Shown one piece after another: positions 33,686 through 47,527 of a stretch of DNA of 52,969 nt. The translations under genes and the position numbers were made by a program. This stretch comes from a virus (taxonomy: Duplodnaviria > Heunggongvirae > Uroviricota > Caudoviricetes). The notes below the pieces were generated by a model. It was not told the origin of the DNA. It saw only the letters and a list, made by a program, of their open reading frames with translations, and did no database searches. How positions within the stretch are numbered: position 1 is the first letter of the stretch; each line of letters opens with the position of its first letter. The stretch is from positions 1-52,969 of the IMG/VR virus record IMGVR_UViG_2718217885_000014. The stretch is one strand, 5' to 3'.

Positions 33686-33762
33686 TGGCGCGTTGTACTG
33701 GATTCGAACCAGTGACCGATTGCTTAGAAGGCAATTGCTCTGTCCGACTGAGCTAACAACGC
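33686..33762 (-). tRNA. tRNA-Arg (anticodon UCU)
   Basis: 77-nt cloverleaf folded by hand: acceptor GCGTTGT/ACAACGC, D-arm GCTC/GAGC, anticodon stem ATTGC/GCAAT with loop CTTCTAA, T-loop TTCGAAT, encoded CCA. Confidence 0.8.
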
Positions 33763-33775
33763 ATGATGCAGATAA

Positions 33776-33856
33776 TGGACCGCCATCGAGGACTCGAACC
33801 CCGCACCAACAACCCTGTTATCGTGTCGTCTGCTCTTCCTGATGAGCTAATGGCGG
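33776..33856 (-). tRNA. tRNA-like gene with atypical anticodon arm (anticodon not assignable; possibly degenerate)
   Basis: Acceptor CCGCCAT/ATGGCGG, D-arm GCTC/GAGC, T-arm CGGGG-TTCGAGT-CCTCG and CCA are canonical, but 27 nt lie between D and T arms and no standard 5-7-5 anticodon stem-loop could be folded by hand. Confidence 0.45.
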
Positions 33857-33863
33857 TATGTTA

Positions 33864-33939
33864 TGGTGGCCCTTGCTGGATTTGAACCAGCGACCTGGCG
33901 ATTATGAGTCGCTCGCTCTCACCACTGAGCTAAAGGGCC
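33864..33939 (-). tRNA. tRNA with CAU anticodon (Met, or Ile2 if lysidine-modified, as ileZ of phage 933W)
   Basis: 76-nt cloverleaf: acceptor GGCCCTT/AAGGGCC, D-arm GCTC-AGTGGTGA-GAGC, anticodon loop CTCATAA, T-loop TTCAAAT, CCA. Confidence 0.8.
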
Positions 33940-39202: not shown

Positions 39203-40539
39203 ATAAGCGCTAACTTAAGGGTTGAACCATCTGAAGAATGCGACGCCTCGGTGCCTCGTTAAGACGATGCCTCGCGTTCTTCAATTGCGTTTTGTAGGCT
39301 GTCAGGGATACTGTCCCACGAATGGCCACCTGTAAGCTCCAGATGACCATTTTTGTTATTCTCCACAACGAGTTAGTTCTTCTTTTCGGATCCGGCACTT
39401 CTGGGGGGGAAATCCAGCGATGGCTGGATTATGTCGTCAATTAAAAATGCGGCGAGTAGATTAGCAAATATCCACGCTTTCGCGAGTTCAGGTTCCTTTG
39501 CACGCAAAGCATCCAGGTGCAGCAAACTTTTGAGCCGCTTAAAAGCCAGTTCAATTTGCCATCGCAGACGGTAACAATCAGCCACTTGCTCTGCTGAATA
39601 TTCATCTTCCGGTAATGATGTTAGCAATAGCACATGGCCCGCTGCTTCCAGCGTTTCCGCCTGAACTACTCGTCCTTTTCGACGATTCTCGCTGAGCAGT
39701 CGGGTTTTACTGATTAATGCTTTTTCGGGAGGAAGTGATACGGCAATGAGACGTGCCGGAAAGGGAGCTCCGGCTTTTTTATTACCTGAATTGCCTATCA
39801 TTACAGTGGTTTCACCGTTCTTACCGCAATCCAGCCCGCGCAGAAAACCCATCATGTCAAAGCGCATTCCTTCTGCAGTTAACCAGCGCAATCCTCGCCA
39901 GTGAACCCGGACGATATAATCAGCTTCTCCAAAAGCAAGTGAGCGGATACATTCGGGACGCGAACCGAATCCCCGGTCAGCAATGCGTATCTCGTCTGCC
40001 GTTTGCGCAAATCGGTCCAGCCGTTCAGCGTCTCTGCTGTCGGTTAGCTCAAAATCAGTGAACTGACAGGTATGAGGATCATATCCCATATGTAGTCGCC
40101 ATTCAGCGCTGCCGCCCCCGGGCGCACTGATTGCTGTTCCATCGACAAGACGCAATCTCTTTCCGCTTGTACAACCCGTAACTGCGGCGCGTACAGCAAG
40201 TGTTTGTGCGGCAAGTATGCCAAACCAGTCGGCGGCATTCCGCAGCCGCTTCAGGAGAGCCACGTCAGATAATGTTGCAACGTCATGGAGCTGAGCCCAT
40301 GCAGTGACTTCACGTAATGACATCCCCCCGGGGCCGTAAGCCAGCCCCAGACGTAGCAGAGTTGCAGCATCACGAATTTCGCGGCGGCGGGTTAGAGCCC
40401 CGGCATTACGTGCCGAAGTATCCAGTTCTTCGGGCTTACCAATATGGGCCAGAATTGCTGACCAGTTATCGTGAGAGTAATTCATCGGCACGTTAAATCA
40501 TATCAGGCGTAATACCACAACCCTTAAGTTAGCGCTTAT
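39203..40539 (-). mobile_element. IS4-family insertion sequence (about 1.34 kb)
   Basis: About 22-bp terminal inverted repeats (ATAAGCGCTAACTTAAGGGTTG at 39203-39224, CAACCCTTAAGTTAGCGCTTAT at 40518-40539); flanked by 11-bp direct repeat TCCCACACCCC (39192-39202 and 40541-40551); one transposase ORF inside. Confidence 0.85.
39373..40485 (-). CDS. IS4-family DDE transposase
   Basis: About 370 aa; C-terminal YRLRWQIELAFKRLKS signature typical of IS4-family transposases. Confidence 0.8.
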   Translation of the reverse strand: MNYSHDNWSAILAHIGKPEELDTSARNAGALTRRREIRDAATLLRLGLAYGPGGMSLREVTAWAQLHDVATLSDVALLKRLRNAADWFGILAAQTLAVRAAVTGCTSGKRLRLVDGTAISAPGGGSAEWRLHMGYDPHTCQFTDFELTDSRDAERLDRFAQTADEIRIADRGFGSRPECIRSLAFGEADYIVRVHWRGLRWLTAEGMRFDMMGFLRGLDCGKNGETTVMIGNSGNKKAGAPFPARLIAVSLPPEKALISKTRLLSENRRKGRVVQAETLEAAGHVLLLTSLPEDEYSAEQVADCYRLRWQIELAFKRLKSLLHLDALRAKEPELAKAWIFANLLAAFLIDDIIQPSLDFPPRSAGSEKKN

Positions 40540-44379: not shown

Positions 44380-44407
44380 GGTTAACTCCTCGTTTCTGTG
44401 GTTACGT

Positions 44408-44671
44408 TTACGCAACTGAACCGCTAACTTTTGAATAGCACTCTGGTAATCCATCATTTGGATTTGGATAAATATCAGGACGCAGCTCATGGGGGGTTAC
44501 GGACCAGTTCCCCAGCTCACAAAGTTGTAAAACTCGTTCCGACGGGACTTGATTGTTAATTACCCAATTAGCGACAGATTGAGTAGATTTAAAACCAAAG
44601 CGACGAGCTACTTCAGATAAAGACTTTCCCGCAGCCTTTACTGCTTTCTCGGTGTAGTTTTGAGATGACAT
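44408..44671 (-). CDS. cro: Cro-like HTH repressor
   Basis: 87 aa; HTH (LSEVARRFGFKSTQSVANWV); GAGGAG Shine-Dalgarno; divergent from cI across an operator/promoter region. Confidence 0.8.
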   Translation of the reverse strand: MSSQNYTEKAVKAAGKSLSEVARRFGFKSTQSVANWVINNQVPSERVLQLCELGNWSVTPHELRPDIYPNPNDGLPECYSKVSGSVA

Positions 44672-44698
44672 ATCTTTCTCCTCTGAAATCCAGAGGGG

Positions 44699-44741
44699 AT
44701 AATGCTACTTAAAGTAGCGAATTGCAACTACTTAAAATAGA
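44699..44741. promoter_or_regulatory. OR operator/promoter region (PR for cro, putative PRM for cI)
   Basis: Pseudo-palindrome GCTACTTAAAGTAGC (44704-44718) and related CTACTTAAAATAG (44728-44740); minus-strand PR: -35 TTGCAA (44722-44727), 17-nt spacer, -10 CATTAT (44699-44704); plus-strand TAAAAT (44733-44738) 5 nt before the cI ATG suggests a leaderless cI transcript. Confidence 0.6.
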
Positions 44742-44742
44742 A

Positions 44743-45483
44743 ATGACGAGCGTATGTGATGTGAGTAATCTTCTACCTATGGTAGAAGAACAGAAGTATC
44801 CAGATTTCGCCAAGAGACTAAACGAGTTAATGACAAACAAGGGAATTTCTGTCACCCAACTCAAAAGTCTTGTTGGCGTTACATATGAAATGGCGCGGCG
44901 ATACACAATCGGCGCAGCGAAGCCTCGTGCCTCTGTCATGAATAAACTTGCGTTGGCTCTGGGGGTATCGGCTTCATATTTAGAATATGGTGTTGGCGAG
45001 AGAGAAGGATGTAAGGAAATGGCAAGCATCCCCAATCCAACAAAACCCGACGTATACAGGATAGAAGTTTTAGATCTTAGCGTTAGCGCAGGACCTGGAA
45101 CCTATATGCTTTCAGACTATGTTGATGTGCTCTACGCCATTGAGTTCACAACAGAACATGCCCGTTCTCTTTTCGGTAACCGTTCTCAGGATGATATTAA
45201 GGTTATGACTGTAAATGGCGATAGTATGTCCCCTACTCTCGTTTCCGGAGATCGACTGTTTGTCGACATTTCTGTTCGTCACTTCCAGACTGATGGAATT
45301 TACTCTTTCGTTTACGGTAAGACTTTTCATGTTAAACGTCTTCAAATGCAAGGTGACAAGCTAGCCGTTCTTTCGGATAACCCTGCCTATGAGAAATGGT
45401 ACATCGATGAAAAATCGCAGGATCAGCTTTATGTAATGGGCAAGGCGTTGATTCATGAGTCAATAAAATACAATCGGTTATAG
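44743..45483 (+). CDS. cI: CI-type prophage repressor (XRE HTH plus S24 LexA-like autopeptidase domain)
   Basis: HTH (FAKRLNELMTNKGISVTQLKSLVGVTYEMARRY); S24 motifs VNGDSMSPTL (Ser) and FHVKRL (Lys); start uncertain (ATG 44743 chosen; in-frame ATG 44779 and track TTG 44722 are alternatives). Confidence 0.85.
   Translation: MTSVCDVSNLLPMVEEQKYPDFAKRLNELMTNKGISVTQLKSLVGVTYEMARRYTIGAAKPRASVMNKLALALGVSASYLEYGVGEREGCKEMASIPNPTKPDVYRIEVLDLSVSAGPGTYMLSDYVDVLYAIEFTTEHARSLFGNRSQDDIKVMTVNGDSMSPTLVSGDRLFVDISVRHFQTDGIYSFVYGKTFHVKRLQMQGDKLAVLSDNPAYEKWYIDEKSQDQLYVMGKALIHESIKYNRL
44771..44787. promoter_or_regulatory. 17-bp palindrome TTCTACC-TAT-GGTAGAA of unknown function
   Basis: Perfect 7-bp inverted arms with 3-bp spacer; differs from the OR/OL operator sequence; lies within or at the 5' end of cI depending on start choice. 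Confidence 0.35.
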
Positions 45484-45498
45484 TTCTAAGGGCATATA

Positions 45499-45846
45499 AT
45501 GGCTAGTGAGCAGGGATTCGAAAAGATTAACATGGATATGTTGGTCTCTTATTTCTCAGAAAAGAATATATATCTAAAATGTACACTATGTGGACACGAC
45601 AGATTGACTGTGCCTCAAGTCAGCGCGAATGTGGGCATGCCATGTACTATGAAACTTGGTAGTTATGTGAATGTTTTTACTGAAAAAAGCATTTATTCTG
45701 ATACTGCTAACCAGTATTACTTTTCACTAATATGCAACAATTGTGGAAATGAAATTCATATAAATGCGTTTTCAGTTTTGAACTGGGTAAATGAAAAGTT
45801 CCCAGCAAAAACGGAAGATGAAAAAAATGCCGACGCCGCAAAATAA
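45499..45846 (+). CDS. hypothetical protein with two CxxC motifs, first gene downstream of cI
   Basis: 115 aa; CTLCGH and CNNCGN motifs about 50 residues apart (possible zinc ribbon); starts 15 nt after the cI stop. Confidence 0.6.
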   Translation: MASEQGFEKINMDMLVSYFSEKNIYLKCTLCGHDRLTVPQVSANVGMPCTMKLGSYVNVFTEKSIYSDTANQYYFSLICNNCGNEIHINAFSVLNWVNEKFPAKTEDEKNADAAK

Positions 45847-46198
45847 TGTAGTACCATTTAATAGTGAACTTCCCACAATTAGAAGACACGGTGGAGATGG
45901 CGGAGGTGATGACATGCTTGAAGCCCGAGTCGCTAAGTTAGAAGCGAATGTTGAGGATATAAAAACAAATCTCGCAGAGATGAGAGCTGACATTCGTGAT
46001 TTGCGAAACGCTCTCTCCGACACCCGACGCGATGTCGCTGTTATCCTTCAAAAACAAATAGATATAGATGAAAAGTTGTCAAAAAAACCTAGCCTAAGTG
46101 AAGTCAACAGCGCTATTTCATCAGCCGTAAATAAACAGATCGCATGGACTGTTGCAACAGGCTTGGCGATTTTAGGTCTCGCCAAATTTATGTTTTGA
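45827..46198 (+). CDS. hypothetical coiled-coil protein with C-terminal transmembrane anchor, second gene downstream of cI
   Basis: About 123 aa from ATG 45827 (GGAAG 10 nt upstream); heptad-like region LEARVAKLEANVEDIKTNLAEMRADIRDLRNAL; C-terminal hydrophobic tail IAWTVATGLAILGLAKFMF; overlaps the 3' end of the preceding gene in another frame. Confidence 0.55.
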   Translation: MPTPQNNVVPFNSELPTIRRHGGDGGGDDMLEARVAKLEANVEDIKTNLAEMRADIRDLRNALSDTRRDVAVILQKQIDIDEKLSKKPSLSEVNSAISSAVNKQIAWTVATGLAILGLAKFMF

Positions 46199-46504
46199 TA
46201 AGTTTTTGACTATGACCTGCCCTAGTTTTCTTACTATCGAGGCTAAATCACACAATCCATTGAGTAGTAAATTCCCTACCGTTTTACACTTAGCCTCCAA
46301 AAACTCAACAATACTCTCATGATTGACTTCTCCCCACTTGATGATTAACTAGATCACATACTGATCTCAGCCACAATGAAACAATCCATCACGTTCTACA
46401 ACTCAGCTAACTTCACAATATAATTTTTTGATCATAGCCCCCAAAATATTTTACCTGTAAATTCAATGAATTAATTTCAAAATGCGTTTTTATGCCCTTA
46501 ACTT

Positions 46505-46541
46505 CTACTTTTTGTAGTTGATTTTTGCAACTTTAAGTAGC
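46505..46541. promoter_or_regulatory. OL operator/PL promoter region
   Basis: CTACTTTTTGTAG (46505-46517) and AACTTTAAGTAGC (46529-46541) share the CTAC..GTAG arms of the OR sites; possible plus-strand promoter TTGATT-17-CAATAT. Confidence 0.5.
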
Positions 46542-46669
46542 AATATCATTTTACCGACAACGAACAGGCAGGACGCCCACGAAGTAGCCGCCTGGGGCAT
46601 ATGAAGTCCAGGATGATTCGTTGAGTCATGTTGTGCCACTAGGCACTCATGTTAAAGCAGGTGTATGAA

Positions 46670-46945
46670 ATGAAAGTCCAGATTTTAAACAATAACTGTG
46701 AAGTCGTTTGGTCATACGACATAGCCGCCCCTGTAGATCAGAGCGGCGATAGCTGGACCAATGGGAAACATCAGATTATGGCTGGAGTTGTGTTCTCTTT
46801 ACGCCGTGCTTTGGAACAGGCTGAAGTATTTCCATCAGACCCTGAATGGAAATGGCCTTTTTCTATTTGTCCAAATTCGGAGAGCACATTTCAGAAAATT
46901 GGTCAGAAAGTCGCACTCGAAGAGCATCAGCCAACTGTTTCCTGA
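46670..46945 (+). CDS. hypothetical protein, first ORF after PL
   Basis: 92 aa from ATG 46670 with AGGTG Shine-Dalgarno; no recognisable family. Confidence 0.4.
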   Translation: MKVQILNNNCEVVWSYDIAAPVDQSGDSWTNGKHQIMAGVVFSLRRALEQAEVFPSDPEWKWPFSICPNSESTFQKIGQKVALEEHQPTVS

Positions 46946-47108
46946 TTTTTTCAGGTAACTCGTCGGCATCGCAGAAACAACAACGCTCGATCATGTTGAA
47001 AGCCGATTCGTAGAACTGTTTCTGCTGAGTGTCGCTGAGACAGGAAAAGAGCGACGTTACGATGATTTTATTAATTGCATTATCAAGTTCTTTTTCATCA
47101 AAAGTCAT
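46863..47108 (-). CDS. hypothetical protein, convergent with and overlapping the previous ORF
   Basis: 81-aa ORF with AAGGA Shine-Dalgarno; Cys-rich (CCFCD); overlaps 46670-46945 by 83 bp on the opposite strand, so one of the two may be spurious. Confidence 0.35.
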   Translation of the reverse strand: MTFDEKELDNAINKIIVTSLFSCLSDTQQKQFYESAFNMIERCCFCDADELPEKIRKQLADALRVRLSDQFSEMCSPNLDK

Positions 47109-47527
47109 TTGATTTTCCTTTTATGTATACGGGCTTAAAAGGATACCACCGAGCCTGAAGTGGTGAAAAGACAGGCACATAACAGCTAAGTATTTTCAAC
47201 CAAAGAGAATCCTTAGCGTTGTGGTGAATGCGGCTCAGCGCACGCGGGTTAAGGTTGAGGCTGACAGTCGACCTTCTGTGGATACCCACCCGTCTGGTGT
47301 GCAACCTTCGCCAGGCACCGGGAGGCACCCGACACCACAACTTTATGCTGTGTGTAGTCCTGGCGGTACCAGTTTGTACCCTTGCTTCCGGCTGGTACCG
47401 TCCTTTTTACAAAACAGAGAAGAGCATCACCGGACGACGGGCTCATAACCCAATCCAACCGGGCGGCTGCCACCGCAGGTGTTCTTCTCTGTTTTGTGGA
47501 GAAACCAACCGACCTTGCAGGGTCGAT

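What the first reader, a model, noticed from the sequence alone, without database searches (positions are those of the whole stretch)
45499..46198. Uncharacterised two-gene cassette in the rexAB position, co-transcribed with the cI repressor
Two small genes follow cI directly (15-nt gap, same strand) and end just before OL/PL, exactly where lambda carries rexA-rexB. Genes here are expressed with cI in the lysogen, so this is a classic site for prophage-encoded exclusion or abortive-infection functions. Neither protein resembles RexA or RexB. The first (115 aa) has two CxxC motifs suggesting a zinc ribbon. The second (about 123 aa) is a coiled-coil protein with a single C-terminal membrane anchor, and its start overlaps the end of the first gene in another frame, suggesting coupled translation. 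A sensor plus membrane-effector pair expressed from PRM is a plausible novel defence module. I could not place either protein in a known family by eye.
Basis: partly seen in the sequence, partly recalled or inferred. Interest (0 to 1): 0.8.

Follow-up and report, generated by a model that had tools for sequence, protein, structure and literature searches.

The report
Uncharacterised prophage gene pair behind repressor
Directly behind the repressor gene of an E. coli prophage, where phage lambda keeps its rexAB exclusion genes, sits a conserved but unstudied pair: a small zinc-binding protein and a membrane-anchored coiled-coil protein that probably comes in two lengths. It is a good, still untested, candidate for a new phage-exclusion module.

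Summary
Gene A (45499-45846, 115 aa) has four invariant cysteines. Gene B (45827-46198, 123 aa) has a disordered N-terminus, a poly-Gly run, a heptad coiled coil and a C-terminal membrane anchor. Both follow cI (15-nt gap, 20-nt A/B overlap) and end 290 nt before OL, an inverted copy of OR.

Both genes are real: A has dN/dS 0.03-0.04. Neither matches RexA/RexB, Pfam, NCBIfam or PADLOC; they fall only in unknown-function PHROGs.

New findings:
- All 78 viral contigs with an A homologue carry a B-like gene immediately downstream.
- The pair sits behind several distinct S24-type cI repressors, or in antirepressor regions.
- B-core homologues with other partners occupy the rex site of HK544, VT1-Sakai and Klebsiella prophages, and the sieA site behind mnt in P22-like prophages.
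- A and B's N-terminal peptide combine with at least six unrelated coiled-coil/anchor tails.
- A very strong in-frame ribosome-binding site (GGAGGTGAT, made of Gly codons) precedes a conserved internal Met (45914). This implies long and short B isoforms.

Function is untested. My best guess (about 0.45) is a lysogen-expressed exclusion module with Rex-like logic.

The parts
44408..44671 (-). cro-like lytic repressor (YdaS/Cro-type HTH), divergent from cI
   Evidence: Pfam YdaS_toxin/HTH; phrog_35 transcriptional repressor; PGAP 'transcriptional regulator'.
44698..44754 (.). OR operator region with CTACTTAAAGTAG-type palindromes, between cro and cI
   Evidence: 57-nt arm, 75% complementary to 46491-46547 (I1). 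The palindromes can be read directly.
44779..45483 (+). cI-type maintenance repressor (HTH + S24 autopeptidase)
   Evidence: Peptidase_S24 E = 8e-17 and HTH_3; phrog_4; PGAP coordinates.
45499..45846 (+). Gene A: 115-aa Cys4 zinc-ribbon-type protein (phrog_4293)
   Evidence: Invariant C28, C31, C79 and C82; phrog_4293 E = 5e-31; dN/dS 0.03-0.04. AF2 pLDDT 67 with no fold match.
45827..46198 (+). Gene B, long form (123 aa): N-terminal peptide, poly-Gly, coiled coil, C-terminal anchor. Its start overlaps A by 20 nt.
   Evidence: Homologues start at MPTP...; N-extension dN/dS about 0.13; phrog_3556 E = 1.5e-47; AF2 model.
45827..45889 (+). B N-terminal peptide (MPTPQNNVVPFNSELPTIRRH). This is the part of B that co-occurs with A-family partners; the related motif elsewhere is [DER][FY]P[KRQ][HFY].
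   Evidence: Same peptide joined to different tails (L025-L027); motif seen across 78 loci.
45890..45907 (+). Gly-rich linker (GGDGGG) whose codons form the internal ribosome-binding site
45902..45910 (+). GGAGGTGAT: near-perfect extended Shine-Dalgarno sequence. Its GGAGG core ends 7 nt before ATG 45914.
   Evidence: Duplex with the 16S 3' end is -16.9 kcal/mol, reached by 0.1% of window ATGs. GGAGG lies 4 or 7 nt upstream in 23 of 25 distinct family sequences.
45914..46198 (+). Gene B, inferred short form (94 aa): the conserved core, coiled coil plus anchor only
   Evidence: Met42 of the 135-aa ORF (Met30 of the 123-aa long form) is nearly invariant. Many homologues are annotated from it at 94-98 aa. 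Production of the short form is inferred, not shown.
46139..46195 (+). C-terminal membrane anchor IAWTVATGLAILGLAKFMF (tail anchor with small-xxx-small motifs)
   Evidence: Highest 19-residue hydropathy window, 1.7; helix 90-122 in the model.
46199..46490 (.). 290-nt spacer between B and OL with no conserved ORF and no detectable intrinsic terminator
   Evidence: (z = -1.08). A related strain has an insertion of about 17 nt here.
46491..46547 (.). OL operator region, with a probable leftward-type promoter read by eye (TTGATT-17-CAATAT, 46518-46546)
   Evidence: Inverted copy of OR. The promoter is my reading; the scan did not flag it.

Best explanation
A and B form a mobile two-gene accessory ('moron') module of temperate phages of Enterobacterales. 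In this prophage it rides on the cI maintenance transcript, so it should be made in the lysogen.

A is a cytoplasmic Cys4 zinc-ribbon protein. B is tail-anchored in the inner membrane by its last 19 residues and carries a cytoplasmic heptad coiled coil that should oligomerise.

B is probably made in two forms. The long form starts at a weak start codon coupled to the end of A. It carries a roughly 20-residue peptide on a poly-glycine tether. The short form starts at an internal Met behind a near-perfect ribosome-binding site and lacks that peptide.

I infer that A docks on the N-terminal peptide of long B. The membrane-bound oligomer, mostly short B with a few long B-A units, would then act as a phage-exclusion device with Rex-like logic. 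A senses or binds something from an infecting phage, and the B assembly responds at the membrane. The response could be abortive membrane damage or a block to DNA entry.

Shown: the anatomy, the conservation, the obligate A-B pairing, the modular swapping, the genomic positions and the internal ribosome-binding site. Inferred: lysogenic expression, the two isoforms, A-peptide binding, and any anti-phage activity.
For: - **Position.** 15 nt after cI, same strand, inside the OR...OL immunity region. This region is a documented mosaic hotspot for accessory loci such as rexAB and bstA (PMC8585504, PMC7067206).
- **Pairing.** 78 of 78 IMG/VR loci with an A homologue have a B-like ORF overlapping it or within about 20 nt.
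- **Mobility.** The pair follows several distinct S24 cI repressors, or lies beside KilA-N/Bro-N/Ant antirepressor genes. An E. coli strain with the same cI and OL carries a very divergent A homologue (phrog_4293) plus a different coiled-coil/TM protein.
- **B-core relatives.** They have other upstream partners, overlapping or abutting them in the Klebsiella and Hafnia loci. They sit behind cI in HK544, VT1-Sakai and Klebsiella prophages. In P22-like prophages they sit behind mnt, at the sieA site next to gene 16 (P22 gene order from PMC10883804).
- **Modularity.** The same A and N-peptide combine with at least six unrelated coiled-coil/anchor tails.
- **Selection.** A has dN/dS 0.03-0.04; the B N-extension about 0.13.
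- **Dual start.** GGAGG lies 4 or 7 nt before the internal Met in 23 of 25 distinct sequences. Duplex energies are mostly -11 to -17 kcal/mol, against -5.0 for the long start. Only 1.8% of window ATGs reach -11.
Against: - There are no experimental data of any kind for either family. The literature searches found nothing.
- No PADLOC model matches.
- No terminator was found after B, and there are no expression data for the lysogen.
- About three quarters of the A-B loci lie in antirepressor regions, where lysogenic expression is not expected by default.
- The A model is of low confidence and matches no known fold.
- The internal Shine-Dalgarno sequence could in principle be a by-product of Gly codons.
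- A-peptide binding could not be modelled with these tools.
Confidence: 0.45

Rival explanations
1. The module tunes the phage's own immunity and induction circuit rather than excluding other phages. A and B would modulate the repressor, the antirepressor or induction, as RexA biases the lambda switch or Hex protects the 434 repressor.
For: The module is nearly always next to immunity regulators: cI, KilA-N/Bro-N/Ant antirepressors, or mnt for B-core relatives. There are precedents for rex-position genes that act on the switch (abstracts: bioRxiv 10.1101/2021.04.19.439022, PMC3564112).
Against: A membrane tail anchor and freely swapped coiled-coil tails are hard to fit to a DNA or repressor-directed role. 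The same positions are also simply the lysogen-transcribed or moron sites. In phage S107 a hairpin and a gap of more than 110 nt separate the pair from the antirepressor genes, which suggests an independent unit.
Confidence: 0.15
2. The pair is a toxin-antitoxin-like or addiction pair. B is a small membrane toxin and A its cytoplasmic neutraliser, and together they stabilise the prophage. This would also be compatible with abortive infection.
For: Two small, translationally coupled genes, the second a single-pass membrane protein with small-xxx-small motifs. The module is mobile and found in many contexts.
Against: There is no similarity to known toxin or antitoxin families. The short B form would lack the A-binding peptide and so could not be neutralised by A. 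Yet the gene pair is stably carried in 17 complete E. coli genomes.
Confidence: 0.15
3. The pair is a host-fitness or lysis-related membrane factor. It could be a lysogenic-conversion protein altering envelope physiology, or an XhlA-like holin accessory used in the phage's own lysis.
For: There are weak matches of B to 'hemolysin' PHROGs (E = 0.004-0.006). One of 34 family members matches Pfam XhlA. One UniRef name reads 'Hemolysin XhlA'. Dual starts are typical of holins (established knowledge).
Against: The XhlA match is not reproducible across the family (1 of 34). None of the contexts examined was a recognisable lysis cassette. All other matches are generic coiled coils.
Confidence: 0.1

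Closest known systems
Phage lambda RexA/RexB
   Same: Two genes directly downstream of cI on the same strand, between cI and OL/PL (lambda layout). One product is cytoplasmic and one is in the membrane. In Rex the ratio of the two products matters, and rexB has its own extra promoter (established knowledge; Parma 1992 as cited in PMC8585504). Here the short B form from a strong internal start would similarly give an excess of membrane component.
   Different: No sequence similarity. RexA is 279 aa and binds DNA (PMC11077077 abstract); it is not a 115-aa Cys4 zinc ribbon. RexB is a 144-aa protein with four membrane spans (my knowledge), not a coiled coil with one C-terminal anchor. No exclusion phenotype is known for A/B.
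P22 SieB/Esc and dual-start holins (lambda S105/S107)
   Same: One gene gives a full-length membrane protein and an in-frame shorter product from an internal start, and the two forms oppose or modulate each other (established knowledge).
   Different: No homology was detected. In B the two starts are 29 codons apart, and the long form adds a tethered peptide rather than a charge or a domain. The two isoforms are inferred here, not observed.
P22 SieA locus (immI, next to mnt and gene 16)
   Same: B-core homologues (P0028, 149 aa) with an 89-aa upstream partner sit immediately downstream of mnt and next to gene 16 in P22-like Salmonella prophages. That is the place P22 uses for sieA-orf59a-mnt (PMC10883804).
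   Different: I know of no sequence relation to SieA, but I made no direct comparison. That cassette lacks the zinc-ribbon A partner.
HK544 gp41/gp40 and VT1-Sakai H0053 (ECs2991/ECs2992)
   Same: A true homologue of the B core (37% identity, phrog_12602/phrog_3556), in the rex position behind a lambda-type cI and preceded by a small partner gene. It keeps the GG-DD-Met junction with GGAGG upstream.
   Different: The partner is a 93-aa protein without cysteines. B carries a 77-residue N-terminal domain instead of a short peptide. It is equally uncharacterised.
Bacillus PBSX XhlA (Pfam PF10779)
   Same: A small phage protein with an N-terminal coiled coil and a C-terminal membrane segment.
   Different: Only 1 of 34 B-family members matches the model, and the window protein does not. 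The genomic context is different (a lysis cassette).

Membership tests
Lambda RexA/RexB exclusion system | Sequence homology to RexA and RexB | tested here: not met
   BLASTP E = 3.0 and 0.53; hhalign probability 0.2%. No Rex family appears in the PHROG or PADLOC results.
Lambda RexA/RexB exclusion system | Location between cI and OL/PL, co-oriented with cI | tested here: met
   lambda layout for comparison.
Lambda RexA/RexB exclusion system | Exclusion of T4 rII and other phages with membrane depolarisation | not testable with these tools
   This needs plaque assays and membrane-potential measurements.
Known anti-phage defence systems (PADLOC-DB 2.0) | A significant match to any system protein model | tested here: not met
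   There are only weak coiled-coil-type hits (LmuB at 9e-5 over the coiled coil; PDC-S64 and PDC-S66 at 0.002-0.008). The partners of related cassettes also give no credible match, the best being a weak coiled-coil hit (PbeC, E = 0.0014).
Haemolysin XhlA (PF10779) | A match to the Pfam model across the family | tested here: not met
   The window protein has no hit at E <= 1. One of 34 homologues matches at E = 3e-4.
CpXC zinc-ribbon family (PF14353) | A score above the Pfam gathering threshold and two CPxC motifs | tested here: not met
   18.3 bits against a cut-off of 25.4. The motifs here are CTLC and CNNC, without the Pro.
Cys4 zinc ribbon (generic fold class) | Two CxxC knuckles conserved across homologues | tested here: met
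   C28, C31, C79 and C82 are invariant down to 23% identity. Metal binding itself was not tested.
Dual-start membrane proteins (holin/antiholin, SieB/Esc type) | A conserved in-frame internal start with its own ribosome-binding site | tested here: met
   GGAGG lies 4 or 7 nt upstream of the conserved Met in 23 of 25 distinct sequences; -16.9 kcal/mol in the window.
Dual-start membrane proteins (holin/antiholin, SieB/Esc type) | Two protein products actually made, with opposing activities | not testable with these tools
   This needs N-terminal proteomics, ribosome profiling or start-codon mutants.
Prophage moron / lysogenic-conversion locus | An accessory cassette present or absent between otherwise syntenic phages, at lysogen-transcribed sites | tested here: met
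   An alternative cassette lies between the same cI and OL. The same cassette follows different repressors. It is present in 17 of 5426 E. coli genomes. Transcription was not tested.

The most novel reading that the evidence does not exclude
A and B are the founding example of a broad, modular class of prophage exclusion systems. The common chassis would be a dual-start, tail-anchored coiled-coil protein (phrog_3556 and analogues). Interchangeable upstream partners, matched to a tethered N-terminal peptide or domain of the long isoform, would supply the specificity. These partners include the zinc ribbon A, a 140-155-aa beta-rich protein and roughly 90-aa proteins. Such systems would occupy both classical exclusion sites of enterobacterial temperate phages: rex behind cI and sieA behind mnt.
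Probability: 0.3. Interest if true: 0.8.

Novelty: new variant of a known kind. Interest (0 to 1): 0.62.

Why it matters
The cI-N interval is where RexAB, BstA and the 933W kinase were found, and each gave a new defence mechanism. This cassette is not homologous to any of them. It is absent from PADLOC-DB 2.0 and has no named function in Pfam, NCBIfam or PHROGs.

Four features make it a well-defined candidate for a cheap experiment, namely cloning 700 bp and challenging with phages:
- the obligate pairing of A and B;
- strong purifying selection;
- module swapping at both ends;
- presence at two independent classical exclusion sites.

The conserved internal ribosome-binding site, built from glycine codons, gives a specific and testable regulatory idea: the ratio of tethered to untethered subunits. 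It also bears on annotation. Gene callers currently split this family between long starts (120-150 aa) and short ones (94-98 aa).

Tried and rejected
- **Curated families.** Pfam, NCBIfam and PADLOC gave only generic coiled-coil or sub-threshold zinc-ribbon hits for A and B. The same held for the partners of related cassettes.
- **Solved structures by sequence.** Only generic coiled coils (Lpp, GCN4, sigma-1) for B, and nothing for A.
- **Deeper homologue search for A.** As a result the A alignment could not be deepened for structure prediction.
- **Rfam.** Nothing in the cassette or in the spacer.
- **Terminator after B.** None found by pattern scan or folding.
- **Internal promoter for B.** Promoter-like hits are no more frequent than in shuffles, so I make no claim.
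- **Literature.** HK544, ECs2992, rex-replacement, defence-hotspot and architecture keyword searches found nothing on these proteins. The Tai paper that mentions HK544 concerns a different system.
- **tblastn context classification.** My first attempt missed most loci. I replaced it with a Pfam scan of the upstream ORFs.

Full report
**What the window is.** The window holds a complete lambdoid-type prophage integrated at tRNA-Thr(CGT) next to proA. The immunity-region stretch I queried (44400-46700) is 100% identical to prophages in E. coli GB089, 09-00049, KFu022 and others.

The immunity region reads as follows:
- cro-like gene, 44408-44671 (-);
- operator region OR, 44698-44754;
- cI, 44779-45483 (+), with HTH and S24 peptidase domains;
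- gene A, 45499-45846 (+);
- gene B, ending at 46198 (+);
- a 290-nt spacer;
- a 57-nt inverted copy of OR at 46491-46547, which is OL;
- a + strand early operon (yfdP/Q/R/T-like genes, integrase).

In lambda the order is cI, rexA, rexB, OL.

**Checking the observation.** The details are correct.
- The gap between cI and A is 15 nt.
- A has C28-x2-C31 and C79-x2-C82. All four cysteines are invariant in an alignment of nine family members down to 23% identity.
- The 123-aa start of B (ATG 45827, MPTPQ...) is shared by homologues from other genera. It overlaps A by 20 nt in another frame. PGAP calls ATG 45818.
- In the AF2 model of B, residues 1-27 are disordered. A long helix spans 28-85 (pLDDT about 90), and a second helix spans 90-122 and includes the anchor.
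- Hydrophobic residues at core positions 2, 6, 9, 13, 16, 20, 23, 27, 30 and 34 give a textbook heptad pattern. The last 19 residues are the most hydrophobic segment.

Both genes are real. A has dN/dS of 0.03-0.04 against copies with saturated synonymous divergence. Each protein has a PHROG family of unknown function: phrog_4293 for A, and phrog_3556 for the C-terminal three quarters of B.

Neither resembles RexA or RexB. Neither matches any Pfam, NCBIfam or PADLOC family above noise.

Two qualifications apply. I found no intrinsic terminator between B and OL. Co-transcription with cI is inferred from the spacing alone.

**The pair is an obligate, mobile module.** A homologues are rare: four clusters in the large protein collection, and 17 of 5426 complete E. 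coli genomes carry this cassette. Scanning IMG/VR with two A alignments gave 78 loci. In all 78, an ORF begins within the last codons of A or within about 20 nt after it.

That ORF always has the same plan:
- a peptide of about 20 residues with a [DER][FY]P[KRQ][HFY]-type motif (FNSELPTI in the window type);
- a run of 5-9 glycines;
- a Met 1-3 residues later;
- a heptad coiled coil that typically begins with an (L/Y)Ex(R)VxKLE-like stretch;
- a C-terminal hydrophobic anchor.

The coiled-coil and anchor parts fall into at least six unrelated sequence types. These are combined with the same A and N-peptide. For example, L025-L027 keep the window's A and peptide but carry different tails.

The upstream neighbours fall into two groups. 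The first is S24 cI-type repressors, of which seven distinct upstream ORFs matched Peptidase_S24. They include that of Enterobacter phage ENT1, where the order is again cro, cI, A, B. The second is KilA-N/Bro-N/Ant antirepressor regions just upstream of the tape-measure gene, in Salmonella and Klebsiella siphoviruses such as S107, SPN3UB and ST101-KPC2phi6.1.

In S107 a hairpin and a gap of about 130 nt precede A. The pair may be its own transcription unit there; this is my reading of the sequence.

An E. coli strain (181.1) has the same cI and OL, about 96% identical, but a different occupant of the site. It carries a 105-aa protein of the same phrog_4293, a 210-aa coiled-coil/TM protein, and a clear terminator. 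The exchange runs from the cI stop codon to just before OL.

**The B core is a wider chassis.** The conserved part of B begins at the Met after the glycine run and has 49 homologue clusters across Enterobacterales. Many of these have different N-terminal regions and different upstream partners:
- a 140-155-aa beta-rich protein (phrog_5893) behind two different repressors in Klebsiella prophages;
- 92-aa and 147-aa proteins at the tail-fibre end of a Hafnia prophage;
- a 93-aa protein in the rex position of HK544 and of the Stx1 prophage VT1-Sakai, where B is 183 aa;
- an 89-aa protein immediately downstream of mnt and next to gene 16 in P22-like Salmonella prophages.

The last position is where P22 carries sieA-orf59a-mnt (PMC10883804). 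B-type cassettes therefore occupy both classical lysogen-expressed exclusion sites of enterobacterial temperate phages. All of these proteins are annotated as hypothetical or unknown.

**A conserved internal start.** The glycine run is encoded so that GGAGG lies 4 or 7 nt before the conserved Met in 23 of 25 distinct family sequences. In the window the sequence is GGAGGTGAT (45902-45910), followed by ATG at 45914.

The predicted duplex with the 16S 3' end is -16.9 kcal/mol. Only 0.1% of all ATGs in the window reach -16, and 1.8% reach -11. The same design is found in HK544 gp40. GGA makes up 25% of Gly codons in these runs against 11% in six long genes of the window, and it is fixed in position. 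Gene callers often start the protein at this Met, giving 94-98 aa.

The upstream extension nevertheless appears to be translated:
- it is open in frame in every lineage;
- it starts at a codon coupled to the end of A;
- it keeps an amino-acid motif across deep divergence;
- it shows dN/dS of about 0.13, on few sites.

Its own ribosome-binding site is weak, at -5.0 kcal/mol in the window. I infer that there are two products: a scarce long form with the tethered peptide and an abundant short form without it. This was not observed directly.

**How it most likely works.** These points are shown:
- a cytoplasmic-type Cys4 protein and a tail-anchored coiled-coil protein that are always together;
- modular exchange on both sides of a peptide/poly-Gly junction;
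- positions at immunity and moron sites.

The following is inferred. A binds the N-terminal peptide of long B, because that peptide co-occurs with A while the tail does not. B oligomerises through the coiled coil and through small-xxx-small motifs in the anchor. The assembly acts against incoming phages, either by damaging the membrane once A is triggered (Rex-like abortive infection) or by blocking DNA entry at the inner membrane. The short form would set the ratio of armed to unarmed subunits. This recalls the importance of the RexA:RexB ratio, and the SieB/Esc and holin/antiholin pairs (established knowledge).

I put about 0.45 on an anti-phage role. The rivals are:
- a modulator of the phage's own immunity circuit, suggested by the constant proximity to repressors and antirepressors;
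- a toxin-antitoxin-like addiction pair;
- a host-physiology or XhlA-like lysis accessory. The XhlA link fails as membership, with 1 of 34 members matching.

**Comparison and novelty.** By position and logic the closest known system is lambda RexAB. By gene design it is SieB/Esc or the dual-start holins. By homology it is only the uncharacterised HK544 gp40 / ECs2992 group.

The cI-N interval is already recognised as a mosaic hotspot for accessory and defence genes (Degnan 2007, as cited in PMC8585504 and PMC7067206). The kind of locus is therefore known. The proteins, their pairing rule, the modular tails and the internal start have not been described, as far as the databases and literature I searched show.

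I rate it a new variant of a known kind, with interest 0.62. It is a concrete and inexpensive experimental target with some unusual design features, but it has no functional evidence yet.

Noticed in passing
window 47196-47411 (+): Sub-threshold Rfam match to the sRNA family STnc100 (32.1 bits against a gathering score of 47, E = 1.9e-4, full model length). It lies in the early leftward-type operon and overlaps a stretch that PGAP marks as a frameshifted pseudogene in GB089.
   Followed up: no
window 46649-46945 (+) and 46863-47108 (-): The first two ORFs after OL are convergent and overlap tail-to-tail by 83 nt. Both are conserved phage families of unknown function (phrog_3195 at E = 6e-70; phrog_3311 at E = 1e-55). 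PGAP annotates only the + strand one, from a later start.
   Followed up: no
window 39373-40491 (-): An IS4-like (IS421 family) transposase ORF sits between the RusA-like and KilA-N genes of the rightward operon. It is annotated as such in the identical GB089 prophage, so the prophage carries an IS insertion.
   Followed up: no
window 33686-33939 (-): The prophage carries tRNA-Arg(TCT) and tRNA-Met(CAT) genes.
   Followed up: no
window 46199-46490; L007 (strain CX12): The 290-nt spacer between B and OL has no conserved ORF, no Rfam hit and no terminator. Strain CX12 carries an insertion of about 17 nt in it. What ends the cI-A-B transcript is unclear.
   Followed up: partly
L006 2628-3619 (E. 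coli 181.1): An alternative occupant of the same site: a 105-aa phrog_4293 protein with 23% identity to A, plus a 210-aa Ser/Asn/Ile-rich coiled-coil protein. The second has a TM segment followed by a Pro/Gln-rich tail of about 35 residues, and then a strong terminator. Its N-terminus has a DLYPNVK motif and a DGGNK-Met junction resembling the B design.
   Followed up: partly
L010 3521-3841 (Salmonella P22-like prophage): A third small gene follows the B homologue at the sieA site: a 106-aa protein with an N-terminal TM segment (phrog_10450). That cassette may therefore have three genes.
   Followed up: no
P0038 (E. coli, 134 aa): This protein is an in-frame fusion of the N-terminal part of the 89-aa partner (phrog_4231) with the B core, apparently through a deletion. 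It is independent evidence that the two genes are neighbours.
   Followed up: no
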